Sequence record: MZ501074
DNA length: 64,000 nucleotides
Origin: Escherichia phage HildyBeyeler
Direction: 5' to 3' (one strand)
The position numbers and the translations under genes are program-made. Position 1 is the first letter of the stretch, and every line of letters begins with the position of its first letter. Below, one piece after another: positions 7,424-63,990 of the stretch. The notes below the pieces were generated by a model, which had not been told where the DNA came from, did not search any database, and was given only the letters and a program-made list of their open reading frames with translations.

Positions 7424-8176
7424 ATGGGAAAAGCACGTCAAAAAAGAGAGAACCGCAATGGTTCAAGAAAGCGTGGCAACAAATATGAGAATAACGTAAT
7501 TCAGGCTGATTTTTCTAATGATTACGCTAACCCAGTTGCTAAATCCCTAGTAGGTAAAAACCGAGAGCAAAAATCATATATCAATATGATCAAGAACAAC
7601 ACAGTGACTGTGGGTATCGGTGAGCCAGGTACAGGTAAAACCTTTATCCCGTCTGTTCTTGCAGCTCAGGAACTCGTAGACATTCACTCAGATATTGAGC
7701 AAGTGATCCTCGTACGTCCTAATGAACCTCTAGGTAAGTCTCTTGGTATGCTTCCTGGTGATCTAGCAGAAAAGCTAGAGCCTTGGTTGGAGCCAATAGC
7801 TGATGGTATGAAATGGGCCATCGGTGATCATGCCTATAGGGGATACGTCGAACGTCAGAAAATTAAATTTTTGGCTATCGAACATGCTCGTGGCAGAACT
7901 TTCAACAACTCCTATGTAATTGTCGATGAAGCTCAGAATATTTCCGTTGAGGCAATGATTTGTCTCCTAACTCGTGTAGGACAAGACTGCCGTTTAATTA
8001 TCTGCGGAGATATAGCTCAGAAAGACATTAAAGGTGACTCAGGTCTAGCACTCCTTATGGAAGTCTATGAGAAATACGAAAATGCCCCCTTCTCAATGAT
8101 CGAATTGATTGATAACGTTCGTTCTGCTGAGTCTAAAGCATTCTACGATATTTTTAAAGACATGGGGAAGGTGTAA
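7424..8176 (+). CDS. phoH: PhoH-like ATPase
   Basis: Walker A GEPGTGKTF and VDEAQN; ATG 7424 with AGGAG 8 nt upstream (track start 7415 is GTG). Confidence 0.8.
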   Translation: MGKARQKRENRNGSRKRGNKYENNVIQADFSNDYANPVAKSLVGKNREQKSYINMIKNNTVTVGIGEPGTGKTFIPSVLAAQELVDIHSDIEQVILVRPNEPLGKSLGMLPGDLAEKLEPWLEPIADGMKWAIGDHAYRGYVERQKIKFLAIEHARGRTFNNSYVIVDEAQNISVEAMICLLTRVGQDCRLIICGDIAQKDIKGDSGLALLMEVYEKYENAPFSMIELIDNVRSAESKAFYDIFKDMGKV

Positions 8177-8177
8177 T

Positions 8178-8375
8178 ATGGGAGACGTTGTACATCTACA
8201 CCGAAAAACTAAAATACATCGTACTTCACTGAGTGCTGCTAATATGATTACACGTAAGGAAGGGGAAGAAAGTCCTAAGACTACCCTAGCGTGGAAAATT
8301 GTAACCTCAAATCCAAATCGGCCCTTCAATTATAACGAACTAAGTACCTCAATAGATATTCTGCTGAGAACTTAA
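8178..8375 (+). CDS. hypothetical small protein
   Basis: ATG directly after phoH stop; in frame with track ORF 8109-8375. Confidence 0.3.
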   Translation: MGDVVHLHRKTKIHRTSLSAANMITRKEGEESPKTTLAWKIVTSNPNRPFNYNELSTSIDILLRT

Positions 8376-8519
8376 GTGGCCAAAAACTAGACTGACAACA
8401 CAGAAGGCCTGGGTATGAAAGTACTCGGGCCTTTTCTATCAGAAAATTTTATTTGCCAAATGACTGAGAATAAAGTAAACTATTTCCTAAATCCTGATAA
8501 CTATAAAAAGGAAAGCCAA

Positions 8520-10853
8520 ATGAGCCATCGCATTGAAAAGGTAATTAAACGTGACGGTACTGTAGAAGACTTTGCTCCTGAAAAACTCAATGGTTGGGCA
8601 GAGTATGGTTGCAAAACAGTTGATGTAAGTTGGTCTGCCATTACTATGGCTGCTCAAAAAACTCTGCCTAAAGGGGTTGTAGATTCCGACACTCTGATGG
8701 ATGCGTTAATTAAAGCTGCTGAAAGTCTTATCAAAGATAATCCAGCATACGACGTGCCAGCAAAGGAATTACGTCTTGCGCAGATGCGTAAACGCCTTTA
8801 TGATTCCTTTGAACCACCTTCTCTACGCTTCTTCCACGATCATATGGTTAGTGTAGGTGCATGGGAAGACATGAGTGCATGGATTACCGATGAGCAATTT
8901 GAAGCTCTGAATCAGGTTATCGACCATGATCGTGACCGTCTTTTCACTAGTGGAGGACTGAAACAATTCTTTGATAAGTATTCCCGTCGTAACATAGCCA
9001 CCGGTGAAATTTATGAAACCCCGCAGTTTGCCTACATGGGTATGGCAATGGCGATGCTATCTCAACCTAACTGGACAATTCTCGATGCAATCGACCTATA
9101 CAACGCAATGTCACTCCACAAAATCAACGTTCCTACGCCGCCACTGGTTGGTCTGCGCTCTAGTGATCGTGGATTTGCTAGTTGTTGCCTCGTTGATTCC
9201 ACTGACACATTGGATTCAATCGACACAGCCGAGCACATCGTTTTTAAAATGGTCGCAGCCAGAGCGGGAATCGGGTATCATCTTGAAAGCAGATCAATTG
9301 CTGATCCGGTGCGAAATGGGGCATTCCCGCATTCCGGAAAACTGCCATATTATCGACACATTGACCGCTCAGTAAAGGCCAACACTCAGCAAACTCGTGG
9401 TGGTTCTGCTACAGTGTCTTATCCATACTTTGATCCTGAAATCATTCAGTTGATGCAGGTTAAGCAACAACGTGCTACAGACGAGAATAAAATCGATAAG
9501 ATGGATTATTCTCTGAGCTTCAACAATCTTTTGTTAAAACGTTATCTTAAAAATGAAGATATTACGCTAATGTCATACTTCTATGCTCCGGAAGTTCATG
9601 AAGCGTTTTATAGTGATGACGAGGCTAAATTTGAAGAAATCTATGTGGCAGCGGAGAAACGTGTGGCATCTCTTACAAAGATCGACCACGAAGGAAAAAC
9701 AGTTCCAGCAGCTCCTAAAGTCTCTGCAAAAGAAATCCTAGATACTTGGCTGCGTATCCGAATGGAAACAGGACGTATGTATGCCCACCACATTGGGGAA
9801 TCTAATCGTCACGGTAACTTCCTTGATCCGATCCGTATGACAAACCTTTGTGTTGAAATTACTCAGCCTACACGCCCGTTCCATCATATCACGGAACTGT
9901 ATAAAACGAAAGAGCAGCTTGACCAAATGAAGCCGGAGGATATTGGGGAAGTATCTCTATGTAACTTAGGTGGTGTTGTACTAGGACGCATGGAATCTCT
10001 AGCTGAGTGGGAAAAAACTTGCTACATCCTCCTGAAATTCGTTGATACAATTATTGAAATTCAGGATTATCCGTTCCCAACTATGGAATATACGGCTAAG
10101 AAACGTCGTAATGTTGGTATTGGCCTGATGAACGCAGCAGGTGCAATGGCAGCAGAAGGTCTGGCTTATGAAGGTATTGAAGCCCGTAACTGGATTCACC
10201 GTGAGGCTGAAAAACTGTCTTACTTCCTGCATAAAGCCTCTGTACGCCTAGCTAAAGAACAGGGTGCATGTGAGTGGTTTGATCGTACTAAACCATCTAA
10301 AGGAATTCTGGTAATCGACACATACAAGAAAACTGTTGATGAGCTGGTATCCGTAGGTCTAGAAATGGATTGGGAATCTCTGCGTGCAGATATTCTGAAA
10401 TACGGTATGCGTAACTCTGTTCTGACTGCGCAGATGCCTGGAGAAAGTTCCTCTGTACTATTGGGTGTTACCAACTCAATTGAGCCACCTCGTAGGATTG
10501 TATCTATCAAGGGTAGTGCAGTGAATAAAGTAATTGCAATTGCTCCGGGTGCAACTGATTGGGATACTCTCATGAGCTATAAACTGGCCTATGATATTGA
10601 TCGCACTGAGTGGATCAAATGGAACGCCGTTTACCAAAAATTCTTGAGCCAGTCATCAAGTTTCCAGATGTATTATGATTACTCTAAATTCGAGAATGAA
10701 ATCATTCCTGGCCCAGTAGTAGTTCGTGACTTTATGACTGCGGTTAAGTATGGTATAAAGACCTGGTATTATGCTAACTTTAACACTGCGAATGGTGGAG
10801 GAGCTGGTGAAGAGGCGGCAACAGGTTGTGCATCAGGCGGTTGTCAGTTATAA
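8520..10853 (+). CDS. nrdA: ribonucleotide reductase large subunit (class Ia)
   Basis: ATP-cone KRDGTVEDF, NLCVEI active-site loop, C-terminal CASGGC tail; ATG 8520 has AAGGAAA RBS (track start 8415). Confidence 0.9.
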   Translation: MSHRIEKVIKRDGTVEDFAPEKLNGWAEYGCKTVDVSWSAITMAAQKTLPKGVVDSDTLMDALIKAAESLIKDNPAYDVPAKELRLAQMRKRLYDSFEPPSLRFFHDHMVSVGAWEDMSAWITDEQFEALNQVIDHDRDRLFTSGGLKQFFDKYSRRNIATGEIYETPQFAYMGMAMAMLSQPNWTILDAIDLYNAMSLHKINVPTPPLVGLRSSDRGFASCCLVDSTDTLDSIDTAEHIVFKMVAARAGIGYHLESRSIADPVRNGAFPHSGKLPYYRHIDRSVKANTQQTRGGSATVSYPYFDPEIIQLMQVKQQRATDENKIDKMDYSLSFNNLLLKRYLKNEDITLMSYFYAPEVHEAFYSDDEAKFEEIYVAAEKRVASLTKIDHEGKTVPAAPKVSAKEILDTWLRIRMETGRMYAHHIGESNRHGNFLDPIRMTNLCVEITQPTRPFHHITELYKTKEQLDQMKPEDIGEVSLCNLGGVVLGRMESLAEWEKTCYILLKFVDTIIEIQDYPFPTMEYTAKKRRNVGIGLMNAAGAMAAEGLAYEGIEARNWIHREAEKLSYFLHKASVRLAKEQGACEWFDRTKPSKGILVIDTYKKTVDELVSVGLEMDWESLRADILKYGMRNSVLTAQMPGESSSVLLGVTNSIEPPRRIVSIKGSAVNKVIAIAPGATDWDTLMSYKLAYDIDRTEWIKWNAVYQKFLSQSSSFQMYYDYSKFENEIIPGPVVVRDFMTAVKYGIKTWYYANFNTANGGGAGEEAATGCASGGCQL

Positions 10854-42653: not shown

Positions 42654-43243
42654 TGAGGGTTAAATTCTGGTCAGACTTGCACTTAGACCACCCTGGAGCA
42701 CTACGTTTCCGTCCGTGGTTTAAGAACATGAAAGAGCACGATGAGTATATTCTAGATACTTTGTCCAAGCATATTGGTAAACGAACAAAACTTATTTTGC
42801 TAGGAGATATTGCAGTAGGTCGTGAAGGTCTGGCCAAATTAAAGTCGGTTATCCACAATGTCCCTAATCAACTCATTATGGGTAATCATGATGCGGAGCG
42901 TCAAGGACTGAGTATTAGGGACTTAGCGGAAGTTTATGACGATATTCAAGCTCTAGGCAAACAGACTGGAGGTGGCAAAAAGTTTTGGCTATCTCATTGC
43001 CCTTTGCACCCCAATGAGCTTCGGGGCAAATTAAATATTCACGGACACGTACATGCTACTTCTATACGTGACCCTCGTTACATCAATGTCTCATTTGAAA
43101 TGAGCAAAACTCCTATTCCTCTAGAAGATATTGTATCAGGTAAGTTTACTAGCTATGATAGAGTAGTTAATTGTACTACTGGCGAAGTATTACAAATAGG
43201 GGAAGATGTAGCTGCTGTATTACGTGGCGATATAAATGTCTAA
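42650..43243 (+). CDS. metallophosphoesterase
   Basis: SDLHLD, GD, GNHD and HGHVH motifs. Confidence 0.6.
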   Translation: MMRVKFWSDLHLDHPGALRFRPWFKNMKEHDEYILDTLSKHIGKRTKLILLGDIAVGREGLAKLKSVIHNVPNQLIMGNHDAERQGLSIRDLAEVYDDIQALGKQTGGGKKFWLSHCPLHPNELRGKLNIHGHVHATSIRDPRYINVSFEMSKTPIPLEDIVSGKFTSYDRVVNCTTGEVLQIGEDVAAVLRGDINV

Positions 43244-49767: not shown

Positions 49768-50546
49768 ATCGGATTTGCACATATTCTAGGAAATTGATAA
49801 GTACAAAAATATTCATCGGATTTGCACATATTCTAGGGCAGTTTCTCTCAAACGTTACACATACTAGGCGGTTAATATAGGGCGGTTATAGGGAGGGCGG
49901 TTATTTCTAGGAGACATTTTTTGAAAACACATTTCTGGATTTTACTGTCGGATTTGCACACTGCATTTCTAGAAATTTATGGTCGGATTTGCACAAACGC
50001 CTAAGTTTTTAGGAACATATAATCTCTTGAAAATGGCAGCATTATTTCGGGCCGAAGGCCCATGATTGCCTGAGTTTTTAGAGCCACAGGAATTTTCACT
50101 TGTCAAGCTATTTTGCCCCATTTTGCTAATAAAATTTTACTTTTTCTGCACCTATCTCAAATTTCCCCAAATTATCTCAACTCTTCCCCAAAACCCCGCA
50201 AATCAGGTGCTCCGCACCAATCCTGCGCCCACACCATTCTAGCCTCCCAAATTTCTCTCGCTCTCTCATCTTCTCCTCAAACCTATACAATCACACACCC
50301 TCTCATCGAAGTCACAAAAATTTCATCGGATTCGCACAAATAAACCCATGTCGGATTTGCACATATTCTAGCTAATTCCACAGGATTGATGCGCAGCATC
50401 GGATTGCTGGAGTTTTTGGGAAAATTCGTCGTCGGATTCGCACATCACAAAAGTTTTTAGGGTCGGATTTGCACACTACCAAAAATTGTCGGATTCGCAC
50501 ATACACGCCCGCACGTAACACCCGTGGAGCAATGTCGGATTTGCAC
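49768..50546 (+). repeat. ten direct copies of 13-bp iteron TCGGATT(T/C)GCACA
   Basis: Copies start at 49768, 49815, 49947, 49982, 50325, 50350, 50431, 50462, 50488, 50534, all same orientation. Confidence 0.85.
49866..49902 (+). repeat. three direct copies of GGCGGTTA at 14-15 bp spacing
   Basis: Copies at 49866, 49880, 49895. Confidence 0.7.
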
Positions 50547-50575
50547 AAAAGCGCAGGGCAATTGCCCTGCGACTT

Positions 50576-50800
50576 TGAATGAGAATCATTATCATTTAAG
50601 AAGTGGAATGCAAATGATAATTATTCTCATTTAAGAAGTGGAATGATTCTCATTTAATAAGTGGAATGCAAATGATAATTATTCTCATTTAAGAAGTGGA
50701 ATGAGAACTATTCAAGAAGTGAAACGATTCTCATTAAAGAAGCGAAACGATTCTCATCCTAGAAAGGGAATGCAAATGATAATGATTCTCATTTAAAAAC
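50576..50800 (+). repeat. tandem array of about 24-bp units (GATTCTCATTTAAGAAGTGGAATG and variants)
   Basis: About eight degenerate contiguous units read directly. Confidence 0.8.
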
Positions 50801-50822
50801 GGAAGTGAGAAACACTGTTATT

Positions 50823-50936
50823 TAAGTTATCCACAGACTTATTAACAGCACGATTTGACTTGACAGAATCCTAGCCATTTTGAGGCGTTATCCACAGACT
50901 TATCCACAGCTTATTCTACTGTATAAATATACAGTA
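50823..50936 (+). promoter_or_regulatory. left inverted repeat with three perfect DnaA boxes and 20-bp palindrome
   Basis: TTATCCACA at 50827, 50888, 50900; TACTGTATAAATATACAGTA at 50917-50936. Confidence 0.8.
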
Positions 50937-51191
50937 TTCCTACGCAGTGAATAATTCTAATATAGGCCTAAAACGTCCTGAATCGCATTCTAGCGCGTTT
51001 TATTTTGGCGGGGATACTAAAACAAGGGCAAAACTGGAGGAGGCTTAGAAATTAGTTAGCTCGCTAACGATCACACAAGGCGACACGTAACACCCTAATC
51101 ATTAGCAGGCTAACCATCGCGGGCGCGGTCAAATGAGAATCATTCTCATTTGAGGATTGGGGGCACTTCCTGATAATTGCCCCCGTGATTA

Positions 51192-51386
51192 TTAGTCCGG
51201 TAATTGATGCGTGATCTTCTCCTCTTCCCCGTAGGAATCGACTAAATGCTGATAATAACCATCATGATCATAAATGACTTTATCATATTCGCCCAGCTCG
51301 ACCGCTTGCCGGTTTTCCGGAGTATCGGGCACATAAAAAACGTCAACCATTGTGGTAGTTTTGGTCACAATAATTTTATCGCTCAT
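51192..51386 (-). CDS. hypothetical protein
   Basis: ORF track; last gene of leftward operon. Confidence 0.4.
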   Translation of the reverse strand: MSDKIIVTKTTTMVDVFYVPDTPENRQAVELGEYDKVIYDHDGYYQHLVDSYGEEEKITHQLPD

Positions 51387-51401
51387 AATAACGCCCCGTT
51401 A

Positions 51402-51683
51402 TTAGTTGACTATCTCAAAGATAGCGTTCTCAAGTGTCGCCCTTAGGATCCCATCGCGCCCTACTACGGAATACTTGAGATCAGGTATTTTGTAACGCTC
51501 AATTGCTTTGAGTAATTGATCTTTTTGGGCTTTATATTTTTGCCCTTCTCGCGCTATCGTGTCGCCTTCGGCTTTAATGCAAATCAGTGTAACCATAATA
51601 ATCCCCCTAGTAAATATATTTTTGCCAATAGCGGCGAACGTTATCGCCACCAGCGGAATCATTAGCTGCCTTACTATTACCAA
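51402..51683 (-). CDS. hypothetical protein (start uncertain)
   Basis: ORF track; possible internal start at MVTLICIK. Confidence 0.4.
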   Translation of the reverse strand: MVIVRQLMIPLVAITFAAIGKNIFTRGIIMVTLICIKAEGDTIAREGQKYKAQKDQLLKAIERYKIPDLKYSVVGRDGILRATLENAIFEIVN

Positions 51684-51707
51684 CGAAAATATATAATCTC
51701 ATTAGTA

Positions 51708-51869
51708 TTATTTTCCCCGCATTAATTTATACATAACTAACATCCCGCAAAACTGACCTAAGATAGTGCAGACAACAAGGGATAACACAATATTGCCTAT
51801 GGTGTTATAAGTAACCACACCAACAATAAGGGATAATGCATACCCTAGCAGGGCAATATAAACAGCCAT
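51708..51869 (-). CDS. hypothetical mini membrane protein (53 aa)
   Basis: Hand translation MAVYIALLGYALSLIVGVV...; not in ORF track. Confidence 0.35.
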   Translation of the reverse strand: MAVYIALLGYALSLIVGVVTYNTIGNIVLSLVVCTILGQFCGMLVMYKLMRGK

Positions 51870-51878
51870 ATTATTTAC

Positions 51879-52214
51879 CTATTTTCGAAACGCTGTTTCA
51901 ATACTATCAGCCGTGGATTGAATATACGCGCCTTTCATTATCAGGCGCTCGGTGCATACTTTGCGAAAAATATTAATAAAATCATCTTCATTTTCTGCGA
52001 TTAACGCCTCCCCCATGACCTGAATATCACACGATGCAAAGGTCAAAAATTGAAACGCTAGTTCACGGGCGACGACCGCATTAATTTTATAATGCGCCTT
52101 TCCATCGTAAATATTAACAACGCCCTTATATTCAGGCGAAAGCTGATTTAAGTAGTTTGCTAATAATCCCGGGCGGCAATTAGTAACAAAGCGATTCCCT
52201 TCATAAATTACCAT
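51879..52214 (-). CDS. hypothetical protein
   Basis: ATG 52214 (MVIYEGNRF) preceded by GGGAGG; track ORF 51879-52229. Confidence 0.45.
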   Translation of the reverse strand: MVIYEGNRFVTNCRPGLLANYLNQLSPEYKGVVNIYDGKAHYKINAVVARELAFQFLTFASCDIQVMGEALIAENEDDFINIFRKVCTERLIMKGAYIQSTADSIETAFRK

Positions 52215-52215
52215 T

Positions 52216-52341
52216 TTATAACCTCCCAATCAGATAGCCAGATAAAAGCATAAAAATCCCCAGCGAACTAGGGTCATTCTTAAACAAGGTGGCGGTAAAA
52301 CCGCCAACCATTGCAAGGATAACAACAATAACGCTTTTCAT
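52216..52341 (-). CDS. hypothetical mini membrane protein (41 aa)
   Basis: Hand translation MKSVIVVILAMVGGFTATLF...; ATGA-coupled to upstream gene; not in ORF track. Confidence 0.35.
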   Translation of the reverse strand: MKSVIVVILAMVGGFTATLFKNDPSSLGIFMLLSGYLIGRL

Positions 52342-52550
52342 AGTACCCCACGAAACGCAGCGTAAAAGGTGGCAAAGTGTCTAACCGTTTCAGCTATCAC
52401 GTTGCCGCGCTTATCGAATTTTTTCTCGGTAACACGAAAGGCGTTTTTATTCCGTGCTACATATTCGATTTTACAATCTTCCCGCTCGAACGTGTTAACG
52501 TCCACCAGCTTAAAGCCTTTGGAACGAGCAAGGGAAACATTACGAATCAT
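52338..52550 (-). CDS. hypothetical protein
   Basis: ORF track. Confidence 0.4.
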   Translation of the reverse strand: MIRNVSLARSKGFKLVDVNTFEREDCKIEYVARNKNAFRVTEKKFDKRGNVIAETVRHFATFYAAFRGVL

Positions 52551-52552
52551 TT

Positions 52553-52741
52553 TTATTCTCCTTTACTATTCATGCAGCCCAGCAGATAAGAAAATACAGC
52601 GACACCCGCGCCAATAATAACCATAGGTTTAGTATTTGCTAAACTGCAATAAGAATCCTGAATACCATAAGCGGTGGCGAAAAGAGTCAAAATAGCGCCC
52701 AAGATACCTGCTAAAAAAGCCCGAAAAATAACCATTTTCAT
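52553..52741 (-). CDS. hypothetical two-helix membrane protein
   Basis: ORF track; two hydrophobic stretches. Confidence 0.4.
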   Translation of the reverse strand: MKMVIFRAFLAGILGAILTLFATAYGIQDSYCSLANTKPMVIIGAGVAVFSYLLGCMNSKGE

Positions 52742-52781
52742 TCTCCTAGTTAGTGGGGCGAAAGTAGCGCCCCGTTATTAC

Positions 52782-53012
52782 TTACATTAAAACGATTTTG
52801 GCGGCTTGTTTTTTGGTGCAATGTTCTGCTTTCAGGGTATCCAGCAAAAAGCCCGCCGTTTGCTGATCGATTTGATCATTATCATAAAGCGCCTGAATGG
52901 TAGTGTAAGTTTTAGCAATGCCGTATTCTTGCACCATTTCTTGAATGATCCAGCGATTTGATACCCAGCCTTTTCCAGTGAAAAGATGACTAGCAGAAGA
53001 ATAAGCAACCAT
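52782..53012 (-). CDS. hypothetical protein
   Basis: ORF track. Confidence 0.4.
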   Translation of the reverse strand: MVAYSSASHLFTGKGWVSNRWIIQEMVQEYGIAKTYTTIQALYDNDQIDQQTAGFLLDTLKAEHCTKKQAAKIVLM

Positions 53013-53130
53013 TATAAGCCTCCAAAATTTTTTGGGAAATTTTCAACCGTCCTCAAACGGTGTAAGGGCATTATAACAAAAAGGCCGCCATAATCGGCGA
53101 CCTTTACAAAACTTTACATTAGATTATTTA

Positions 53131-54123
53131 TTACTCGTTTTCGGTGTTAGTGGTAAAAGTAGAAATATCGATACCTTTTACCATTTCATCAATCATCTCA
53201 GCGATGTTAAAACTTTGCACCATTTCCAACATTGCCGCTTCCATAGCCGCTCCTGCTACCGCTTTCGCTTTCTGGTTATTCGGGGCGTACTGGTCAACCG
53301 CTACACTCAGCAGGTTAGCGATCACTACTCGACCGATCGGCGTATCAATATAGCCTTTAATCATAAATGGCGCTTTTTTAGCCGCTACTTTCGTGATTTG
53401 AGTTAGTGCAATTTTACCCGCTTCCAGTTTTGCAGCATTTACAACAGCGGATTTATTAGCGGCAACGATGTTAGCGATCTTAGTCATGGTATTTTTTCCT
53501 TTGTTTTCAGTGGTTTGAGTGTTAACGCTTTGAGTGTTAGAATTTACAGCATGTTTTTCTATATTGTCAATAGGCTGATCTTCATCTTTCCAGAAAGAAA
53601 AGCCCGCGCTTTCTATATCCCCATCGTATACGTATGGGTATACTTCCGACGGTAGCAAAAAATTGCCATCATCATCAAAGGCCATTACAGCCGCCAGACG
53701 ATACCCGTCACCGATTGACCGATTCCAGCCAACTGATAAATAACGCCAAAATGAATCAAGAAAGTTTTCAACGTCATAAAGATCCTTATCATAAGGCTCA
53801 TAATTTTCTATTGAAAAAACTTCTAAGCCCGCCCCAGCATCATAGGCTTTTACTGTGCTACCTTTTACGATTATGAAATCAGTGTCCGGCCCCCTACTAG
53901 TAAGCAGGTGATTATCCCTATTATATAAGATAATAGTTGCCCCTTGCTTATATAATGGTAGAAAACTACTCATATCATAGGCGTCGAAATCATCAAAAAA
54001 ATTCTGGTGAATATCTTCGGCCTTGTTAACAAAGTGCTTAATGCTGGTTGTTCTGCTACCGTCCAGCAGGTTGCGCAGCGCACCTTTTAAGACGGTTGCG
54101 TTATCTGGTTTATATAGCCTCAT
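53131..54123 (-). CDS. hypothetical two-domain protein (330 aa)
   Basis: ORF track; acidic N-terminal domain, N/T/Q-rich linker, A/K-rich C-terminal domain; no motif recognised. Confidence 0.55.
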   Translation of the reverse strand: MRLYKPDNATVLKGALRNLLDGSRTTSIKHFVNKAEDIHQNFFDDFDAYDMSSFLPLYKQGATIILYNRDNHLLTSRGPDTDFIIVKGSTVKAYDAGAGLEVFSIENYEPYDKDLYDVENFLDSFWRYLSVGWNRSIGDGYRLAAVMAFDDDGNFLLPSEVYPYVYDGDIESAGFSFWKDEDQPIDNIEKHAVNSNTQSVNTQTTENKGKNTMTKIANIVAANKSAVVNAAKLEAGKIALTQITKVAAKKAPFMIKGYIDTPIGRVVIANLLSVAVDQYAPNNQKAKAVAGAAMEAAMLEMVQSFNIAEMIDEMVKGIDISTFTTNTENE

Positions 54124-54389
54124 TTGTTGGCCTCCCTCGTTAATCGGTGAGTGAATGATAAAGGCAATTTTCTAGCATAGGCAAATATTATTTTACCTTT
54201 TTATTTTCCTTGCCTAGCGCCTAGTTTTATGCTAACCGCGCAGCGGTACAGTAAAGAGCAAAACACGGTGAAGCCACCAGGCCGACGCGTTGAGGCTTTA
54301 CTTTAATATTACCCCACTGCGTTTAGCTCGTTAGAAAGCGATTTAGGCCGCTTAAAATTGATTGCAGTTGTTAACACTACCTTTTTACC

Positions 54390-54497
54390 CTGTATATTTA
54401 TACAGTAGGATAACCTGTGGATAAGTCTGTGGATAAGCCCTTATATCGCCGCCTATTGTGTCAAATCATTTTGTGCTGTGATTAAGTCTGTGGATAA
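54390..54497 (-). promoter_or_regulatory. right inverted repeat with three DnaA boxes (reverse orientation) and palindrome
   Basis: TGTGGATAA at 54416, 54428, 54489; CTGTATATTTATACAG at 54390-54405; mirrors 50823-50936. Confidence 0.8.
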
Positions 54498-54538
54498 CTT
54501 AAATGATAGTTTTTCTCACTTAGGCCGATAGTTTCTTA

Positions 54539-54580
54539 TAGTGATTATTTTTATAGTGATTATTTTTATAGTTATTATTT
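54539..54580 (+). repeat. tandem 15-bp AT-rich repeats (ATAGTGATTATTTTT)
   Basis: Two perfect units plus one degenerate, read directly. Confidence 0.6.
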
Positions 54581-55247
54581 CTCATTAATTTATATGTATA
54601 TTATATAATATGAAATAGTTAGTTGGCTAATGAGATTTTACGGGATTAGTAGTCTGCTAATGGTTCAGGCTGTTACAATCCACCAGCACGATTATCATTC
54701 TAGTAATTATTAGTCTGCTATCTTTCTAATACACAACAACAAATAAAAGTCAATTAATTAATTTTATAAAATAACTCATTTAGTCTTGATTTTTAAAAGT
54801 CAATACCTTTTACAACTATTTTTCAATTTTGCTTTTATTAAATATTTGTTAAGTCGAAAATAAGCCGCCTAAAACGCCCTAGAAAGCGGTAAAATTTTCA
54901 GGTATCCCATCATAAGGGGATAGCCCGTTTATCGTCACCTGATGGATTCTAGAAAAATCAAGTAGGGCAAGGCAAATATAAGTGAAAAAATTACTTGCCT
55001 ATCTGCTATGTTTTGTGGTATCCGCGCGCCCGTTTCCTTTAAACTTGGGCAATCGCCGGACACCTTGCTTTCTTTACATTTCTTTACAAAAATAAGGTTG
55101 CGCCATTTTTGGTATTTGCTATTATTTACCTCGTAGGGCGGCAATGACGAACTACACGGCGGGAAGTTTACCGCCGCGCTCTTTAAAAATTGGGTATATC
55201 TTAAAGTCTATCGGCGGCAAACTTATACATTATAAGGAATCGCAGAT

Positions 55248-55451
55248 ATGAAACAAACTTTATTGATCACTGGCAAGCCAGCTAAAAAACTGGATGGCAA
55301 TACTAGAAAGCTGTTGACAGTAGCGCAAAGATCAGTAAAATATCGATTTAAGCAGTACAAGAAAGGCCGCCAGCAAGGTCTAGAAATGATCTGGCGAAAT
55401 ATTATGATCGACCTAAAGGAAAATCATAAAAAACTGCAAAAAATTGTTTGA
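55248..55451 (+). CDS. hypothetical basic protein
   Basis: ORF track; AAGGAA RBS. Confidence 0.4.
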   Translation: MKQTLLITGKPAKKLDGNTRKLLTVAQRSVKYRFKQYKKGRQQGLEMIWRNIMIDLKENHKKLQKIV

Positions 55452-55679
55452 CAACCTAGCCGATAGGCTTTAAGATGTACCCAGTTCGATAAGAGCGATA
55501 ACTTGATACAATTTGACGGCCGGTACTTGCCATAATGTGCCCCGCCCCCTAACTGGGATATAGCGGCCCGCGTGGAGTTCTTTAAATTGATTATATTGGC
55601 AAGCGGATTTTTTCTTATTACCTGCTAGAAAGTAGCAGGTAATGCGGAACAATCCACTAAATAAACTGGAGTTTATACT

Positions 55680-55931
55680 ATGCAAAACATTACTAATGCG
55701 CCGAAAGTTGGTCAATCCGTTTTTATCCCTTTCGTTACTAAAACGGACGAGGCAACCGGAAAGGCCGAACGCATCAAAGGCGCGGCGCTTATGCCGTTTG
55801 ATGTGATTGATGCGGTATACGCTGAAACGGAACAGAGTAACAACGGGAAAACCGTTTTTAGCGTTCGCGTTAAATCCGGCGACGTTGTAAAGGTTGCCCA
55901 GCGTAACGAAAAATGGGAAGCTGTAGCGTAA
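55680..55931 (+). CDS. hypothetical protein
   Basis: ORF track; followed by CCCCCAG...CGGGGGG hairpin. Confidence 0.45.
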   Translation: MQNITNAPKVGQSVFIPFVTKTDEATGKAERIKGAALMPFDVIDAVYAETEQSNNGKTVFSVRVKSGDVVKVAQRNEKWEAVA

Positions 55932-56034
55932 TATAGTGTTAACTTTATATTCCCCCAGTAGTTCGGGGGGAATATAACGATTAACATTATGTTAATCATT
56001 TAATCCCTTAAATTAAATCGATAGGAGCTATATC

Positions 56035-56451
56035 ATGACTAACGTTAAAGCCGAAAAATCCGCAAAATTTGCTTGGAATGAAGAAAACACCCAGCAGGCG
56101 GTTACTATGTATCAGCAGTTAATTAATGAAAACGGATTAGATTTTGCAAATAGCGACGGTTTAAAAGAGATTGCGAAAGCAGTTGGCGCGGCTTCTCCCG
56201 TGTCCGTTCGGTCAAAATTGACCAGCGCGAAAGCCTATCAAAAAAGCGATAAGCCGCGCAAAGTTGGCGGCGGCAGTTCAATCCGCAAAGCGCATTACGT
56301 GCGCGTTATTGCAAAACATGCCATCGATTCCGGCATTATCAAGGACGCCGATGATCTGGCATCACTGGAAAGCGCAAAATTAGAAACGTTGGACGTCGTG
56401 GCGCAGATGTTAGGCGTTGCCGATGAAGTAAAACAAGCCGCAGGCGAATAA
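56035..56451 (+). CDS. hypothetical protein
   Basis: ORF track; GGAG RBS. Confidence 0.45.
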   Translation: MTNVKAEKSAKFAWNEENTQQAVTMYQQLINENGLDFANSDGLKEIAKAVGAASPVSVRSKLTSAKAYQKSDKPRKVGGGSSIRKAHYVRVIAKHAIDSGIIKDADDLASLESAKLETLDVVAQMLGVADEVKQAAGE

Positions 56452-56540
56452 TAGTTATATCTTGCCCCTTCTAGCGAGGGGGCAATAATATAACTGTTTA
56501 GCGATAGTTATTTTCTTCCCCTAAATCAGGAGTTTTAAAA

Positions 56541-56738
56541 ATGATCTTTTACCCTACTGAATCGCTCATTCTAGGATTATTTATTATGGCGGCCTCATTA
56601 TTGTTTGCTTATTTCCAAAATGATCTGGATTCGTATTATTTTAAGCGCAAAGCTAAATTAGCAAAGCGGTTGGGCTTACTTTGCTTAATTGCCGCCGTTG
56701 CTTGTGGTGTTAGTTCTAGCCTGATGCCGATTAGTTAA
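56541..56738 (+). CDS. hypothetical membrane protein
   Basis: ORF track; two TM helices; hairpin ATAACGCC...GGCGTTAT downstream. Confidence 0.4.
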   Translation: MIFYPTESLILGLFIMAASLLFAYFQNDLDSYYFKRKAKLAKRLGLLCLIAAVACGVSSSLMPIS

Positions 56739-56835
56739 ATATCGCAAGTTATAACGCCTATTATTTAAGGCGTTATATCTGGCAATATTGCCAATAACAA
56801 ACGTTTTTTAATCCCTTTAATGGAGTTTTATTATT

Positions 56836-58506
56836 ATGGTTATTTCCGCAGAAAAACAAACCCAGATCCTCAACCTTGCCGCTGATTTCAATTTCTATGG
56901 TAAACGTCTGCGCGCTACTAAGCTGGAAGTTTGTGACGATATTTCAAAAGCTGTTTATGATACGCCGAAACATTCCACCGCTATTTGTGACTGGTTGGAA
57001 GCAAATAAACCAGCGAAACCGAAAGCGGCGAAAGTAGCAAAAGCCATAAAAAACGATGACCGCCCTGAAGCCGCTGGAGTTATTTCTAGCACGGTGGAGC
57101 AATGGGAAGTAAAACAAGGCAAACGCTTTATCATTACATCGATTCAGAATAATACTTTCCCGCATAAAAACTTTTTGGCCGCGCTTGAACAATATGCCCA
57201 ATTTATTGGAGCTGATTTGCTGGTTAGCAAGTATATTTATAATAAAAACGGTTTTCAAAATGGGGAAGGGGCAGACGGAATCAAATATGATTCTGCATTT
57301 GACAAATATATTTGCAGCAAAAACGTGTTTTTAAATAACCGCCGCTTTGCTTTCATGGCTGAAATTAATGTTTTGCCAACCGCAGATTATCCGCTATCTG
57401 GATTTGCTGAAACTGCAACCGCGCTTAATCTGGAAGGTCTGGCAATTGGTCACGCTAAAATCACCGCCGAAAGCGTGCCAGCTTTAAAAGGTGAAGTAGT
57501 GCGCCGCATGTATTCAACCGGAACGGCAACGCTAAAAAATTACATTCAGCAGAAGGCAGGGCAAAAAGCGGAAGCGTTACATAATTTTGGTGCGCTGATT
57601 GTCGAGTTCGACGAGGACGGAGAATTTTTTGTTCGCCAGCTTGAAACGATGGACGAAAGCGGCGTTTTTTACGATTTGAATATTTGCGCCACTCCCACCG
57701 GATGCTATGAAACAACGGGGCACGTTTTAGGTTTACAGTATGGTGACATCCACGCTGAAAAATTAGATGAAGAGTGCGCCGCTGCATCATGGGGGCATGG
57801 TGATACCTATGGGCTTGTGGATATTCTCAAACCAAAATATCAATTCGTCCATGACGTGCATGATTTTACATCACGCAACCATCACAACCGCGCCTCCGGT
57901 GTATTCCTAGCAAAACAGTACGCCGCCGGACGTGATAAGGTTCTGGATGATCTTATCGATACGGGGCGCGTACTGGAAGCAATGGAGCGTGATTTCTCTC
58001 AAACAATCATTGTTGAATCGAATCACGATCTGGCGTTATCCCGCTGGCTTGATGATCGTAATGCTAACATTAAAGACGACCCAGCAAACGCGGAACTATA
58101 TCACCGCCTGAATGCCGCGATTTACGGAGCTATCGCAGAAAAAGACGAAACCTTCAACGTGCTTGATTATGCGTTGCGCAAGGTTGCAGGTTGCGAGTTT
58201 AACGCCATTTTCCTAACGACTGACCAATCTTTCAAGATTGCAGGCATTGAATGCGGCGTACACGGTCACAATGGCATTAACGGGAGTCGTGGCAATCCTA
58301 AACAGTTTAAGAAATTGGGCAAATTAAACACGGGGCATACTCATACGGCAAGCATTTACGGCGGTGTATATACCGCTGGCGTTGCTGGTAGTCTGGACAT
58401 GGGTTACAACGTTGGCGCGTCAAGCTGGACGCAAACGCATATTATTACCTATGTAAACGGTCAGCGCACTTTGATTGACTTTAAGAATGGTAAATTTTTC
58501 GCATAA
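56836..58506 (+). CDS. A1: A1-like pre-early protein, metallophosphoesterase-type nuclease
   Basis: 556 aa; GDIH, ESNHD and GVHGHNG phosphoesterase motifs; size and context recalled to match T5 A1. Confidence 0.5.
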   Translation: MVISAEKQTQILNLAADFNFYGKRLRATKLEVCDDISKAVYDTPKHSTAICDWLEANKPAKPKAAKVAKAIKNDDRPEAAGVISSTVEQWEVKQGKRFIITSIQNNTFPHKNFLAALEQYAQFIGADLLVSKYIYNKNGFQNGEGADGIKYDSAFDKYICSKNVFLNNRRFAFMAEINVLPTADYPLSGFAETATALNLEGLAIGHAKITAESVPALKGEVVRRMYSTGTATLKNYIQQKAGQKAEALHNFGALIVEFDEDGEFFVRQLETMDESGVFYDLNICATPTGCYETTGHVLGLQYGDIHAEKLDEECAAASWGHGDTYGLVDILKPKYQFVHDVHDFTSRNHHNRASGVFLAKQYAAGRDKVLDDLIDTGRVLEAMERDFSQTIIVESNHDLALSRWLDDRNANIKDDPANAELYHRLNAAIYGAIAEKDETFNVLDYALRKVAGCEFNAIFLTTDQSFKIAGIECGVHGHNGINGSRGNPKQFKKLGKLNTGHTHTASIYGGVYTAGVAGSLDMGYNVGASSWTQTHIITYVNGQRTLIDFKNGKFFA

Positions 58507-60140: not shown

Positions 60141-60272
60141 CAAGGTGAAACAGTTAGCATGATAATAGTAACGGGGGTGGCGGTTAGCAGACTAAGTATT
60201 TTCGCCCAGCCCACTGCACCCACCCACGCGTACGTAATCCAAAGAATTTGGCAAAAGTCATTTTAGCGCTAA

Positions 60273-60812
60273 TTACCTGTTTAATTGGGCAACGTCTGGT
60301 ATACTTCCTTTGAACATCTCCTGTATTGCAAAGTCACCATGAAATGTCCTTCTTAGTAAATTTGCATAATTTACGGCATCTTCTAATTCGCTATAGGGAA
60401 AGTACTTAGTAGTGCCCCTTATCAGCCCCTGTTTATCGTGTAATCTTACCATCCACTTCTGAAGTTCTTTATGCCATGTAACATTTAGATAGCCTGATGA
60501 TGCTCTTGAGATTCTGCCATTATGATTATTCTCTGTAATTGAAGCCTCTCTTAAATTTGACCATCTATTATTTAGTTTATTCCTATCTATGTGGTCTACA
60601 CATTCCTCTGGCCATCTATTCTCCATAATAACAAAAGCTACTTGATGTGCATAAGCTTTAAACCCTCGATACTTGAGCTGCCTATATCCCCTATTTAAAG
60701 TACCTGCTTCTTTACCCTTACGATTGCCGCTTTTCCAGGTAAAAACTCCAGTTTCGGGGTCATAAGCAAATACTTCTTGTATTTCCTGTATATTTAGATT
60801 ATTCTTCACCAT
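60273..60812 (-). CDS. HNH homing endonuclease
   Basis: HQVAFVIMENRWPEECVDHIDRN...NRWSNLREAS HNH signature. Confidence 0.65.
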   Translation of the reverse strand: MVKNNLNIQEIQEVFAYDPETGVFTWKSGNRKGKEAGTLNRGYRQLKYRGFKAYAHQVAFVIMENRWPEECVDHIDRNKLNNRWSNLREASITENNHNGRISRASSGYLNVTWHKELQKWMVRLHDKQGLIRGTTKYFPYSELEDAVNYANLLRRTFHGDFAIQEMFKGSIPDVAQLNR

Positions 60813-62202: not shown

Positions 62203-63990
62203 ATGGGTTTTTTCGCTGGAAAATATAGTGATGGTAAAACTGTATTATCACTAAACAAGGTGAATGGGGGGGATATTAATGCTCACAAAACTCCTAACGC
62301 CAATACTATATTTCATTCTGACATGCCATTTGTTCTAGTTGAGAGTACGTATGAGAGTGCGTTAAGTAGTGCTGGTAATGGGTTCTTTGTATGTCAAATG
62401 CCTTCTGATATAGCTAATTTAAAGAGCAACGACCCTGGTAGAGTTATACTAACCGCTGTTGAGATAAACGGTACACATAGAGCTTTTCTTAATGGTACTC
62501 AATCCCAGGTTGGGCAGTTCTCAGCATTTTTCGAGGATTTTGCTAGTGGTAGGGCTGGTGCTGAATTATCTGTAACATCTGCTTTTGCGATCGGTGATAG
62601 TTTAGCACACGGTACTTATACTTATAACTCTGGTTTAGGCCATGAGGAATCTATTGCTCGACAAGGTTCTGGGGGCAGTTTACTACAGGCCTCTGGGTTC
62701 CTGATCTATAGACCTGGTGGTGTTTCTGCTGGTGAAGCCATTTCCAGAGCCTGGAATCTTATGGGTTTTCCAGCGGGTGTCTCTACTGTTCCTTTAGATA
62801 GTAATCACGCAGATTATTGGGAGCCTAACTGGCAGGCACCTATTGGGTCTGCTGGTAGAGGTCACAATTGGTTTTATGTTTGTAACTCCAATATTCGTGG
62901 CTTTGCAGGTAAGAAAGGTGTATTACCAAATAACGTAAACGTTATTTATAAATCCCCCGCATACCCAGAAAAAATCTATGTTTGTAGAGGTTCTACCTCT
63001 AACTTAGCGAATCAAAGTGCTAAAAAAATGATTGTACAAGATAATTTTAATGTAACTCCAACTAAGGTTATTTGGTACGTATTGAATCTTAAGTACTCTA
63101 ATGGGGGTATGAGTGTTGCTAGTAATCCCTTTACTGGATCCGATATTCATATAAGTCCATCTAACTTTACTATAAAAGGTGTTAGTCTTCCAAACACTAG
63201 CTACAAATTCATTAATCAGAATGCTTTTGGTAATTTAGCGTCTAGACCTGATATGGAGTATGTTGGTAATAACGCTGCGTATACCGGAGTTTTTGGTGAT
63301 AATACTGCAAGATGTGAAATTGTAGGTTCTAATAAAGGCTCTTTATGGTCTCCAGTAGATTATGGTGGTTCTAAGTCTCAGATAAGTATTTACAAATTCT
63401 CTGCTGGTAAGCAATGGTATGTTAATTCCAACAATAATACTATAGGTAATGAGCATGGAGTTGTTTGGGGACCCTCTTCAGTACCTTTACGATTACTACC
63501 AAATAACGTAGCCAGTACTTATATAGGTGATGACATAAACCCTTCTTACCCGGGTACAGGTAACAAGTATGTAGCCTTATCCACAGTAAGTCTTGGACTA
63601 CCAAATGCAAACTCTACAGTAATCCTAACTACTGAAGTAGTTGCTGGAAATCTTAATACTGCTGGAATGCCTGTGCGTACTTACAGTGGTAGCGCTTGGC
63701 AGGTACAAGGTAGACGTAAACAAAGTTACACAGCTGGTGATGGCATATTCCATCAAATATTAACTTTACCACCCAACCATCTAGTACCATTCCATACTAC
63801 AGCTTCCTATAGCTATGCACAAACTCAGGCTAGTAGGCCTGATGATTTAACATTTACTAGAAATGGGTTTATTTATACTATTAAAAATTTGGGTAACGGT
63901 AACGTTGAGTTGGGTGTAGTTATACATGCTGCGGAAGCGGCAGCTGTTTTCTTACCAAGACTACGTGTAACAGTTCAACGCCTTACCTAA
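62203..63990 (+). CDS. receptor-binding tail protein candidate (pb5/Oad-like)
   Basis: 595 aa Gly/Asn/Ser-rich protein adjacent and divergent to llp-like gene; AGGAG RBS; no sequence motif recognised. Confidence 0.4.
   Translation: MGFFAGKYSDGKTVLSLNKVNGGDINAHKTPNANTIFHSDMPFVLVESTYESALSSAGNGFFVCQMPSDIANLKSNDPGRVILTAVEINGTHRAFLNGTQSQVGQFSAFFEDFASGRAGAELSVTSAFAIGDSLAHGTYTYNSGLGHEESIARQGSGGSLLQASGFLIYRPGGVSAGEAISRAWNLMGFPAGVSTVPLDSNHADYWEPNWQAPIGSAGRGHNWFYVCNSNIRGFAGKKGVLPNNVNVIYKSPAYPEKIYVCRGSTSNLANQSAKKMIVQDNFNVTPTKVIWYVLNLKYSNGGMSVASNPFTGSDIHISPSNFTIKGVSLPNTSYKFINQNAFGNLASRPDMEYVGNNAAYTGVFGDNTARCEIVGSNKGSLWSPVDYGGSKSQISIYKFSAGKQWYVNSNNNTIGNEHGVVWGPSSVPLRLLPNNVASTYIGDDINPSYPGTGNKYVALSTVSLGLPNANSTVILTTEVVAGNLNTAGMPVRTYSGSAWQVQGRRKQSYTAGDGIFHQILTLPPNHLVPFHTTASYSYAQTQASRPDDLTFTRNGFIYTIKNLGNGNVELGVVIHAAEAAAVFLPRLRVTVQRLT

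What the first reader, a model, noticed from the sequence alone, without database searches (positions are those of the whole stretch)
54124..55247. 1.1-kb AT-rich ORF-free control region between divergent operons
The region lies between the leftward unknown operon and the rightward A1/A2/dmp-like genes. It contains the right DnaA-box arm, tandem ATAGTGATTATTTTT repeats (54539-54580), repeated TAGTCTGCTA and AAAAGTCAAT motifs and long A/T runs. This looks like divergent promoters and possibly an origin-like unwinding element.
Basis: partly seen in the sequence, partly recalled or inferred. Interest (0 to 1): 0.5.

Follow-up and report, generated by a model that had tools for sequence, protein, structure and literature searches.

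The report
T5-type pre-early intergenic control region
This is the already described non-coding "repeat region 1+2" in the middle of the terminal repeat of a T5-like phage: it carries pre-early promoters and one of two mirror-image DnaA-box modules, and it is not a replication origin.

Summary
54124-55247 is the longest ORF-free stretch in the window, and its core holds the lowest-GC 400 nt. All the listed repeats are present and exceed chance.

The window is a T5-like phage (Demerecviridae) with a collapsed terminal repeat. The region is orthologous to T5 "Repeat Regions 1+2", between hdi (T5.008) and gene 011, annotated since 2005 and analysed by Davison (2020).

It contains:
- the leftward promoter P11, verified in T5;
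- a candidate hdi promoter and leader;
- the 132-nt IRC-spacer-IRD module with four DnaA-type boxes, the inverted copy of the injection-stop-associated module 3.5 kb away;
- a variable AT-rich core.

The strong rightward promoters PH22 and PD/E20 lie just outside, in and after hdi.

The origin idea fails. The 15-mer tandem varies from 1 to 5 copies and is replaced by insertions (an HNH endonuclease gene in T5) in half of the relatives. A viable T5 mutant (Annor 2026) deletes the equivalent of about 51.25-54.77 kb.

New here:
- The two DnaA modules do not co-evolve, so they are conserved as binding sites, not for pairing.
- IRA/IRA' around hdi behaves as an RNA helix (652 Watson-Crick, 48 G-U and 0 A-C cells).

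Verdict: already known, modest interest.

The parts
54124..54184 (-). P11-type pre-early promoter and 5' leader of gene 011. -35 TTGCCT at 54184-54179, 18-nt spacer, -10 TATCAT at 54160-54155, SD GGAGG at 54135-54131, ATG at 54123.
   Evidence: Consensus scan. One spacer mismatch to T5 promoter T5P4. Hexamers conserved in 24 genomes. T5 P11 verified by primer extension and listed as experimentally characterised.
54185..54389 (.). Conserved upstream block. It holds an A/T-rich UP-like tract, a second TTGCCT in inverted orientation at 54209-54214, a small hairpin with T-run on the - strand at 54279-54266, and IRB' at about 54328-54355.
   Evidence: Conservation 0.73-0.92. T5 annotation of IRB'. 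IRB/IRB' show no covariation: 336 Watson-Crick, 52 other, 10 G-U, 10 A-C cells.
54390..54521 (-). IRC-spacer-IRD module (the R2 arm). Palindrome CTGTATATTTATACAG at 54390-54405. DnaA-type boxes at 54416-54424, 54428-54436, 54477-54485 (TTAATCACA) and 54489-54497. Central TTGACA. Terminal AAATGATAG..TCTCAC.
   Evidence: Inverted repeat with 50803-50934. Box matches. Orthologous to T5 6022-6152. Box-position variability fits TTWTNCACA.
54536..54580 (.). Variable-number 15-16-nt tandem repeat (TTATAGTGATTATTT), 3 copies here.
   Evidence: TRF. 1-5 copies, or replaced by a >=300-nt inserted segment, in 23 relatives. Least conserved part of the region.
54581..54860 (.). AT-rich variable core. AAAAGTCAAT (TTGACTTTT on the - strand) at 54745 and 54795.
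   Evidence: Moderately conserved, with conserved islands at 54744-54763 and 54794-54803.
54861..54888 (.). IRB, the partner of IRB'.
   Evidence: T5 annotation, alignment. No support for pairing.
54958..55040 (.). Strongly conserved block of unknown role. AGGCAAATAT ... A6TTACTTGCCTATCTGCTATGTTTT ... CCGCGCGCCCG. It is a direct-repeat paralogue of the P11 -35/UP region (54179-54228). It has no conserved canonical -10 on either strand.
   Evidence: Direct repeats D4 and D10. Conservation 0.86-0.95. A - strand TTGCCT-18-TAGAAT hit exists in the window only.
55098..55125 (+). Candidate hdi promoter: TTGCGC, 16 nt, TATTAT, preceded by an A-rich tract at 55085-55094.
   Evidence: Both hexamers invariant in 24 genomes while the spacer varies. 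Inference only: it falls below the threshold of the consensus scan and is not mapped experimentally.
55158..55175 (+). Conserved hairpin in the hdi leader (GGCGG / CCGCC).
   Evidence: RNAalifold. In two genomes the changes fall in the loop.
55177..55215 (+). IRA, the 5' arm of a long-range helix that encloses hdi.
   Evidence: Inverted repeat I1. RNAalifold predicts it independently. 98.5% of cells paired, 0/500 shuffles reach this. 652 Watson-Crick, 48 G-U, 0 A-C. MFE z-score -9.0.
55248..55451 (+). hdi (T5.008, FtsZ inhibitor) homologue. Outside the finding but part of the unit. Contains PH22 (55314-55341).
   Evidence: 92.5% aa identity to T5 by tblastn. PHROG 4718. Function from PMC10714956. 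Promoter position.
55448..55497 (+). PD/E20 promoter (TTGACA-17-TAAGAT, 55448-55476), overlapping IRA' (55459-55497), the 3' arm of the helix.
50803..50934 (+). IRD'-spacer-IRC' module in Repeat Region 3 (injection-stop candidate), the inverted partner of 54390-54521.
   Evidence: T5 9332-9462. Davison 2020.

Best explanation
**Identity (shown).** The region is the central non-coding control region of the first-step-transfer DNA (the terminal repeat) of a T5-like phage. It is the fused equivalent of T5 Repeat Regions 1 and 2.

**Left edge.** It carries the sigma-70 promoter P11, which drives the leftward pre-early operon 011-017. This is shown by orthology to a promoter verified in T5.

**Right third.** It carries a candidate promoter and a highly conserved leader for the toxic FtsZ inhibitor gene hdi. 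The leader includes the 5' arm (IRA) of a helix of about 32 bp. Its 3' arm (IRA') lies just after hdi and overlaps promoter PD/E20. The substitution pattern shows that the pairing is selected in the + strand RNA. I infer that it is a processing, stability or translation control of hdi, for example an RNase III-type substrate. It would exist only in transcripts that start upstream of hdi.

**DnaA-box module.** The IRC-spacer-IRD module holds two pairs of DnaA-type boxes, a central TTGACA and a flanking palindrome. It is one of two mirror-image copies that bracket the 011-017 operon. The two copies evolve independently and share only these motifs, so I infer that they are protein-binding modules, most likely for host DnaA, and not a pairing structure. 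This copy is accessory: a viable T5 mutant lacks it, and Davison reports that some natural T5-like phages lack it too.

**AT-rich core.** The core with the 15-mer tandem is variable spacer DNA and a landing site for inserted segments (in T5 a homing-endonuclease gene).

**Not an origin.** The region does not act as a replication origin.
For: **Identity**
- 519 phage records match, and the match lies inside annotated terminal repeats.
- Alignment with T5 and Shivani, read against the T5 feature table (IRA, IRA', IRB, IRC, IRD, IRB', T5P1-P4).
- Davison's description of R1/R2/R3 and the 8 DnaA boxes.
- Flanking A1, A2 and dmp-like genes.

**Promoters**
-.

**DnaA module**
- Six of the eight perfect boxes in the 64-kb window lie in the two mirror clusters.
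- Over 144 boxes, positions 1 and 2 are invariant and positions 8 and 9 nearly so. Almost all variation sits at positions 3 (A/T only), 5 and 6.
- Arm identity within a genome is 77.4%, against 77.2% between genomes. Orthologous arms are 88% (R2) and 94% (R3) identical.

**RNA helix**
-.

**Variable core**
-.

**Dispensability**
- The T5 deltaL-deltaR deletion primers map to AY587007 5360-5390 and 9082-9107. The deletion therefore removes about 5391-9081: hegG, IRC, IRD, IRB', P11 and genes 011-017. The phage is viable with small plaques.
- Type 4 T5-like phages lack IRC/IRD.
Against: - No transcription start, DnaA binding or RNA cleavage has been measured for this phage. [quoted passage not shown]
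- The hdi promoter has a weak -35 (TTGCGC) and falls below the threshold of the consensus scan.
- The helix covariation rests on few independent events: 5 pairs with double changes and 7 pairs with G-U. Part of IRA' is independently constrained by the PD/E20 promoter.
- The conserved block 54958-55040 is not explained.
- The small plaques of the T5 deletion mutant leave room for a quantitative role of the deleted elements. That mutant also lacks dmp and other genes.
Confidence: 0.8

Rival explanations
1. Replication origin. DnaA binds the four boxes and melts the adjacent AT-rich 15-mer tandem, as at oriC.
For: - Four DnaA-type boxes lie directly next to three AT-rich tandem 15-mers and the lowest-GC DNA of the window.
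- The cumulative GC skew turns here.
Against: - The tandem has 1-5 copies, or is replaced by an inserted segment, in relatives, and is the least conserved segment.
- The same box module occurs a second time without such a tandem.
- T5 origins are reported near the genome centre, and replication genes are absent at the first-step-transfer stage.
- A viable T5 mutant deletes the boxes and the AT-rich part.
- The skew turn coincides with the change of gene strand.
- The flanking genes are host-takeover genes, not replication genes.
Confidence: 0.03
2. Second arm of the injection-stop device (Davison 2020). Membrane-bound DnaA binds both IRC-spacer-IRD and IRD'-spacer-IRC'. This anchors or knots the entering DNA so that transfer halts until A1/A2 release it.
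For: - The two modules are conserved in position and content across T5-like phages.
- The boxes behave like selected DnaA boxes.
- An old report describes a minor first-step-transfer band of about 5.8 kb near IRC.
- The T5 mutant lacking the R2 arm makes smaller plaques.
Against: - The R2 arm is dispensable for viability in T5 and is absent from type 4 phages.
- There is no complementarity-preserving co-evolution of the arms.
- No experiment has tested DnaA involvement.
- The arm lies 3.5 kb before the stop point.
Confidence: 0.15
3. The DnaA-box modules are transcriptional insulators or regulators. DnaA bound on either side of the 011-017 operon would block read-through, or would tune P11 and the rightward promoters during the pre-early phase.
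For: - The modules bracket exactly the 011-017 operon, in inverted orientation.
- The R2 module lies about 200 nt upstream of P11, between it and promoter-like sites reading leftward.
- DnaA/box complexes are known to block RNA polymerase (own knowledge, asnC/mioC literature; not checked here).
Against: No transcript data. Each module also carries other conserved motifs (a palindrome and TTGACA) that this idea does not explain.
Confidence: 0.15
4. IRA/IRA' is only a DNA-level duplication of the PD/E20 promoter region and has no RNA function.
For: IRA' contains the -10 and start region of PD/E20, so its conservation is expected anyway.
Against: - Every departure from Watson-Crick pairing is G-U on the + strand. 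There are 48 such cells in 7 pairs, with 0 A-C and 0 other.
- 5 pairs show changes on both sides, against 0.7 in shuffles.
- IRA on the - strand has no usable -35.
Confidence: 0.25

Closest known systems
Bacteriophage T5 left-terminal-repeat Repeat Regions 1 and 2 (Wang et al. 2005 annotation of AY587007; Davison 2020, bioRxiv 10.1101/866236)
   Same: - Same position, between hdi (T5.008) and gene 011.
- Same order of elements: IRA, IRB, IRC-spacer-IRD, IRB', P11.
- Same 61-nt spacing of the box pairs.
- Same inverted partner in Repeat Region 3.
- The IRC-spacer-IRD arm is about 82% identical to T5, and the whole region aligns with T5 end to end.
   Different: - No HNH (hegG/009) insertion, so R1 and R2 are fused, as Davison says for most T5-like phages.
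- Three perfect boxes and one variant box in this arm.
- Three copies of the 15-mer, where T5 has an insertion.
E. coli oriC-type origin (DnaA-box cluster plus AT-rich 13-mer unwinding element)
   Same: A cluster of same-orientation DnaA boxes lies next to AT-rich tandem repeats.
   Different: - The repeats are not conserved.
- The element is dispensable in T5.
- It is duplicated in inverted orientation.
- It sits in DNA that acts before replication genes enter the cell.
Non-origin chromosomal DnaA-box clusters (datA, DARS) and DnaA-box transcription blocks
   Same: A few closely spaced boxes of mixed strength, with no unwinding function needed.
   Different: A phage context. Fixed architecture of two pairs (9+3+9 nt) 61 nt apart. 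No IHF site was tested. Function unknown.
Long-range RNase III processing stems (rRNA operons; phage T7 early mRNA sites)
   Same: A helix of about 32 bp with an internal loop brings together the two ends of one cistron in a polycistronic early transcript.
   Different: No cleavage has been shown. The 3' arm doubles as a promoter. The enclosed gene is a 67-aa toxic protein.

Membership tests
T5-type terminal-repeat Repeat Region 1+2 | Sequence orthology to the T5 LTR 4.7-6.4 kb non-coding DNA | tested here: met
   Alignment with T5 and Shivani. 519 matching T5-like records, 164 of them covering at least 80% of the region.
T5-type terminal-repeat Repeat Region 1+2 | Located inside the terminal repeat, between hdi/A2/A1/dmp and genes 011-017 | tested here: met
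   Genome terminus at about 60207.
T5-type terminal-repeat Repeat Region 1+2 | IRC-spacer-IRD of about 131 nt with paired DnaA boxes, inverted relative to IRD'-spacer-IRC' in Repeat Region 3 | tested here: met
   132-nt arms, 83% complementary. Mirror-image box positions. Present in most of the fetched relatives: 18 distinct genomes have both arms.
T5-type terminal-repeat Repeat Region 1+2 | IRA/IRA' and IRB/IRB' inverted repeats | tested here: met
   IRA/IRA' 39 nt, 82% complementary. IRB/IRB' 15 of 17 positions paired.
Sigma-70 divergent promoter region | Leftward promoter with a mapped start | tested here: met
   One spacer mismatch to T5 T5P4/P11. The T5 promoter is verified by primer extension. 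Not mapped in this phage.
Sigma-70 divergent promoter region | Rightward promoter inside 54124-55247 | tested here: inconclusive
   Only a candidate at 55098-55125, with invariant hexamers and a variable spacer. The known promoters PH22 and PD/E20 lie at 55314-55476, outside the region.
DnaA-dependent replication origin | Cluster of DnaA boxes | tested here: met
DnaA-dependent replication origin | Conserved AT-rich unwinding element next to the boxes | tested here: not met
   The 15-mer tandem has 1-5 copies or is replaced by an inserted segment, with 65% gaps in the alignment.
DnaA-dependent replication origin | Required for propagation, or shown to initiate replication | tested here: not met
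   From the literature, not from my own experiment. A viable T5 deletion removes it. Origins are reported at the genome centre.
DnaA-binding module | Physical binding of DnaA | not testable with these tools
   Only sequence constraint that fits TTWTNCACA. The literature says no experiments exist.
RNase III-type long-range processing helix | Conserved helix of at least 20 bp, supported by covariation on the transcribed strand | tested here: met
RNase III-type long-range processing helix | Cleavage by RNase III | not testable with these tools
   Needs northern blots or 5' and 3' end mapping in rnc+ and rnc- hosts.
Known RNA families (Rfam 15) | Match at the gathering score | tested here: not met
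   Only a chance-level hit: RF00623, 20.9 bits against a gathering score of 100, E = 0.77.

The most novel reading that the evidence does not exclude
The IRA/IRA' repeat, so far listed only as a DNA inverted repeat, may be a selected long-range RNA helix. It would enclose the toxic FtsZ-inhibitor gene hdi in transcripts that start upstream of it. It would act as a processing or translation switch that sets how much Hdi is made relative to A2/A1, which have their own internal promoters PH22 and PD/E20. In addition, the 12-mer TTAG-N4-CTAA recurs in this region, in Repeat Region 3 and about 30 nt from the genome terminus. It could be the operator of a phage DNA-binding protein.
Probability: 0.4. 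Interest if true: 0.4.

Novelty: already known. Interest (0 to 1): 0.2.

Why it matters
The mechanism of T5 two-step DNA transfer is still unsolved, and the DnaA-box modules are the main sequence clue to it.

This analysis adds three constraints on the copy in this region:
- It is conserved as a set of binding motifs, not for pairing with its partner.
- It is accessory, not essential.
- It is not an origin.

The analysis also gives a concrete, testable RNA-level role for IRA/IRA' in controlling the toxic hdi gene. For genome annotation, it shows that the "hypothetical proteins" called in this stretch in some records are not supported.

Tried and rejected
- **Rfam scan of 50000-56900 at E <= 1.** It gave only a chance hit.
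- **Search for promoter PH207 (sequence from memory) in the T5 LTR.** No match. It is not a promoter of this region, or my recalled sequence is wrong.
- **IRB/IRB' as an RNA or DNA stem.** No covariation and many mismatches. Rejected.
- **Pairing or gene conversion between the two 132-nt arms.** Rejected: identity within a genome equals identity between genomes.
- **Small ORFs 54935-55144 (-) and 55008-55136 (+) as genes.** Rejected because of frame-breaking indels and a 416-nt insertion in relatives.
- **Leftward promoter at 54975-54946 and TTGACT-based promoters at 54745-54804.** The -10 elements are not conserved. Left open.
- **Supplement of Klimuk 2020.** It held no promoter coordinates.
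- **Davison 2015.** The paper is not held in the library.

Full report
**What the window is**

The stretch 54124-55247 matches 519 phage records, almost all T5-like phages of Salmonella, Escherichia and Klebsiella. The best matches are about 91% identical. In records with annotated ends, the match lies inside the long direct terminal repeat, for example at Shivani 5189-6756 of an 11.1-kb repeat.

The flanking ORFs are the T5 pre-early genes:
- to the right, hdi (67 aa, 92.5% identical to T5.008), an 83-aa ORF, A2, A1 and a dmp-like gene;
- to the left, the gene 011 homologue (330 aa).

The window runs opposite to the usual T5 map. Homology to the T5 left terminus ends at about 60206 and another record ends at 60207, after which unrelated genes follow. 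The window therefore comes from an assembly in which the terminal repeat is collapsed.

**Check of the observation**

- The stretch is the longest one in the window without an ORF of 75 aa or more. Its core contains the lowest-GC 400 nt of the window.
- AT-richness is confined to 54356-54860 (27.5% GC). The two flanks are 42-44% GC.
- The 15-mer tandem, the TAGTCTGCTA and AAAAGTCAAT pairs and the DnaA-box arm are real.
- Repetitiveness far exceeds dinucleotide-preserving shuffles: 26 recurring 10-mers against 2.2 expected.
- The two small mechanical ORFs inside are broken by indels in relatives. "ORF-free" therefore holds.

**Identity**

A three-way alignment with T5 (AY587007) and Shivani, read against the T5 feature table, shows this is T5 "Repeat Region 1" plus "Repeat Region 2". 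These are Davison's terms.

Listed from the high-coordinate end (55497) towards 54124, the elements run:
- IRA' and PD/E20 (T5P1);
- hdi, with PH22 (T5P2) inside it;
- IRA;
- IRB;
- the AT-rich core;
- IRC-spacer-IRD;
- IRB';
- P11 (T5P4);
- gene 011.

T5 and Shivani each carry an HNH endonuclease gene inserted at a different point. This phage has none, which Davison describes as the common and ancestral state.

The 132-nt arm 54390-54521 is the inverted copy of 50803-50934, which lies in Repeat Region 3, the candidate injection-stop signal.

**Promoters**

- **P11.** TTGCCT-18-TATCAT at 54184-54155, - strand. It differs from the T5 sequence by one spacer base, and its hexamers are conserved in 24 genomes. 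In T5, P11 gives pre-early primer-extension products, and Annor et al. list a promoter upstream of gene 011 among three experimentally characterised pre-early promoters.
- **PH22 and PD/E20.** These are the other two characterised promoters, and they overlap hdi "fully or partially". Here they are TTGACA-16-TAAAAT at 55314-55341 and TTGACA-17-TAAGAT at 55448-55476. Both lie outside the finding.
- **Candidate hdi promoter.** Inside the finding I see TTGCGC-16-TATTAT at 55098-55125. Both hexamers are invariant in all 24 genomes while the spacer varies. This is an inference only.
- **Unexplained block.** 54958-55040 is strongly conserved and is a direct-repeat paralogue of the P11 upstream region. 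It has no conserved -10 on either strand. I leave it unexplained.

**The DnaA-box module**

Six of the eight perfect TTATCCACA sites in 64 kb sit in the two mirror-image clusters.

I aligned both arms from 18 distinct genomes. Each arm keeps four boxes, arranged as two pairs. Within a pair the boxes are 3 nt apart, and the pairs are 61 nt apart start to start. Between the pairs lies a central TTGACA, and a palindrome CTGTATAAATATACAG flanks the module.

Over 144 boxes, positions 1 and 2 never vary and positions 8 and 9 vary once or twice. Almost all variation is at position 3 (A or T only), position 5 (any base) and position 6 (C or A). This fits selection for the DnaA-box consensus TT(A/T)TNCACA. 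The first and last box of each module are strong, and the two nearest the spacer are weaker.

The two arms do not co-evolve. Identity between the arms is 77.4% within a genome and 77.2% between genomes, while orthologous arms are 88% (R2) and 94% (R3) identical. What is conserved is therefore a set of binding motifs, not complementarity between the arms. That argues against any model requiring the arms to pair.

DnaA binding itself has never been tested.

**Why it is not an origin**

- The 15-16-nt tandem next to the boxes is a variable-number repeat. It has 1, 2, 3 or 5 copies in different genomes. In about half of them it is replaced by an inserted segment that begins right after the module; in T5 that insert carries the HNH endonuclease gene. 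It is the least conserved part of the region.
- Davison cites mapping of T5 origins near the genome centre. He also notes that replication genes are not yet in the cell when this DNA acts.
- I mapped the published primers of the T5 "hegG to 017" deletion to AY587007 5360-5390 and 9082-9107. The viable deltaL-deltaR phage therefore lacks about 5391-9081: IRC, IRD, IRB', P11 and genes 011-017. In this window that corresponds to about 51.25-54.77 kb. The mutant is viable, though with small plaques.

The same result, together with the natural phages that lack IRC/IRD, makes this copy of the module accessory for the injection stop as well.

**A new point: IRA/IRA'**

The 163 nt upstream of hdi (55085-55247) are more conserved than hdi itself.

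RNAalifold on 23 genomes independently predicts a long-range helix between 55177-55215 and 55459-55497, enclosing the whole hdi ORF. The evidence for it is as follows:
- 98.5% of cells are paired, and no shuffle out of 500 reaches this.
- Five pairs changed on both sides, against 0.7 in shuffles.
- Sliding the 3' partners by 1-3 columns drops pairing to 32-39%.
- After leaving out one genome whose 5' arm is replaced by an insertion, the 32 pairs in 22 genomes give 652 Watson-Crick, 48 G-U, 0 A-C and 0 other cells.
- The window sequence folds with this helix at z = -9.0.

Transitions in a DNA repeat under no RNA constraint should give G-T and A-C equally. Seven pairs with G-U and none with A-C therefore point to pairing in the + strand RNA.

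Only transcripts that start upstream of IRA contain both arms. Transcripts from PH22 and PD/E20 do not.

I infer a processing, stability or translation control of the toxic hdi gene, possibly an RNase III site. This is not shown. By contrast, IRB/IRB' show no such support.

**Other motifs**

- The exact form TTAGCAGACTAA lies at 60184, about 30 nt from the T5-type left terminus. It is conserved at T5 27-36 and Shivani 25-34.
- One-mismatch copies lie at 54649, 54710 and 51102.
- Four of the six TTAG-N4-CTAA sites in the window fall in the terminal repeat, which is 15% of the window.

This looks like an operator for a dimeric DNA-binding protein. I did not test that.

**Verdict**

The "divergent promoters" reading is half right, and the "origin" reading is wrong.

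The element is a well-described feature of T5-like phages, so its novelty is "already known". Interest is modest. The role of the DnaA-box modules in two-step DNA transfer remains an open question. The analyses here constrain the role of this copy and add a testable RNA-level function for IRA/IRA'.

Noticed in passing
window 60184-60195; also 54619, 54649, 54710, 51102, 51192: The palindromic 12-mer TTAGCAGACTAA (TTAG-N4-CTAA) lies about 30 nt from the T5-type left genome terminus. It is conserved at that position in T5 and Shivani. Near-copies recur in the two non-coding repeat regions. 4 of the 6 TTAG-N4-CTAA sites in the window are in the terminal repeat.
   Followed up: partly
window about 60206-60220: Homology to the T5 left terminus ends here and unrelated genes follow directly (an HNH endonuclease at 60273-60812 on the - strand, then a membrane protein). 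Another record ends at the position matching 60207. The assembly therefore has a collapsed, circularly joined terminal repeat spanning about 50.5-60.2 kb.
   Followed up: partly
window 50300-51200: This is Repeat Region 3, the injection-stop candidate. It has five or more copies of GTCGGATTTGCACA (50348-50547), the palindrome CGCAGGGCAATTGCCCTGCG (50552-50571) that matches the T5 7.9% nick site, and nested repeats of 23-, 35- and 104-nt spacing containing AATGATAATTATTCTCATTTAAGAAGTGG (50565-50811).
   Followed up: partly
window 54521/54522, 55068, 55247 (insertion points seen in relatives L003-L032, T5, Shivani): The region is a hot spot for insertions in relatives. Segments of 300 nt or more (in T5 the hegG/009 HNH genes) begin after 54521. 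An insertion of about 416 nt sits at 55068 (in Shivani, an HNH endonuclease gene at that point). A 155-nt insertion sits at 55247. The insertions lie just downstream of promoter-like blocks.
   Followed up: partly
window 54958-55040: A block that is almost invariant across 24 genomes. It duplicates the P11 -35/UP region (AGGCAAATAT ... CTTGCCTA) and contains CCGCGCGCCCG, but has no conserved -10 on either strand. Its function is unexplained.
   Followed up: partly
window 42849-42857 and 63577-63585: Two isolated perfect DnaA boxes (TTATCCACA) lie outside the terminal repeat. The overall count of TTWTNCACA in the window is not above chance: 12 against 7.5 +/- 2.4.
   Followed up: no
public records matching 54124-55247 (e.g. 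GEC_vB_N3, NC_103212 4942-6073): Some deposited genomes annotate up to five "hypothetical proteins" inside this non-coding region. The comparative data here do not support them.
   Followed up: partly
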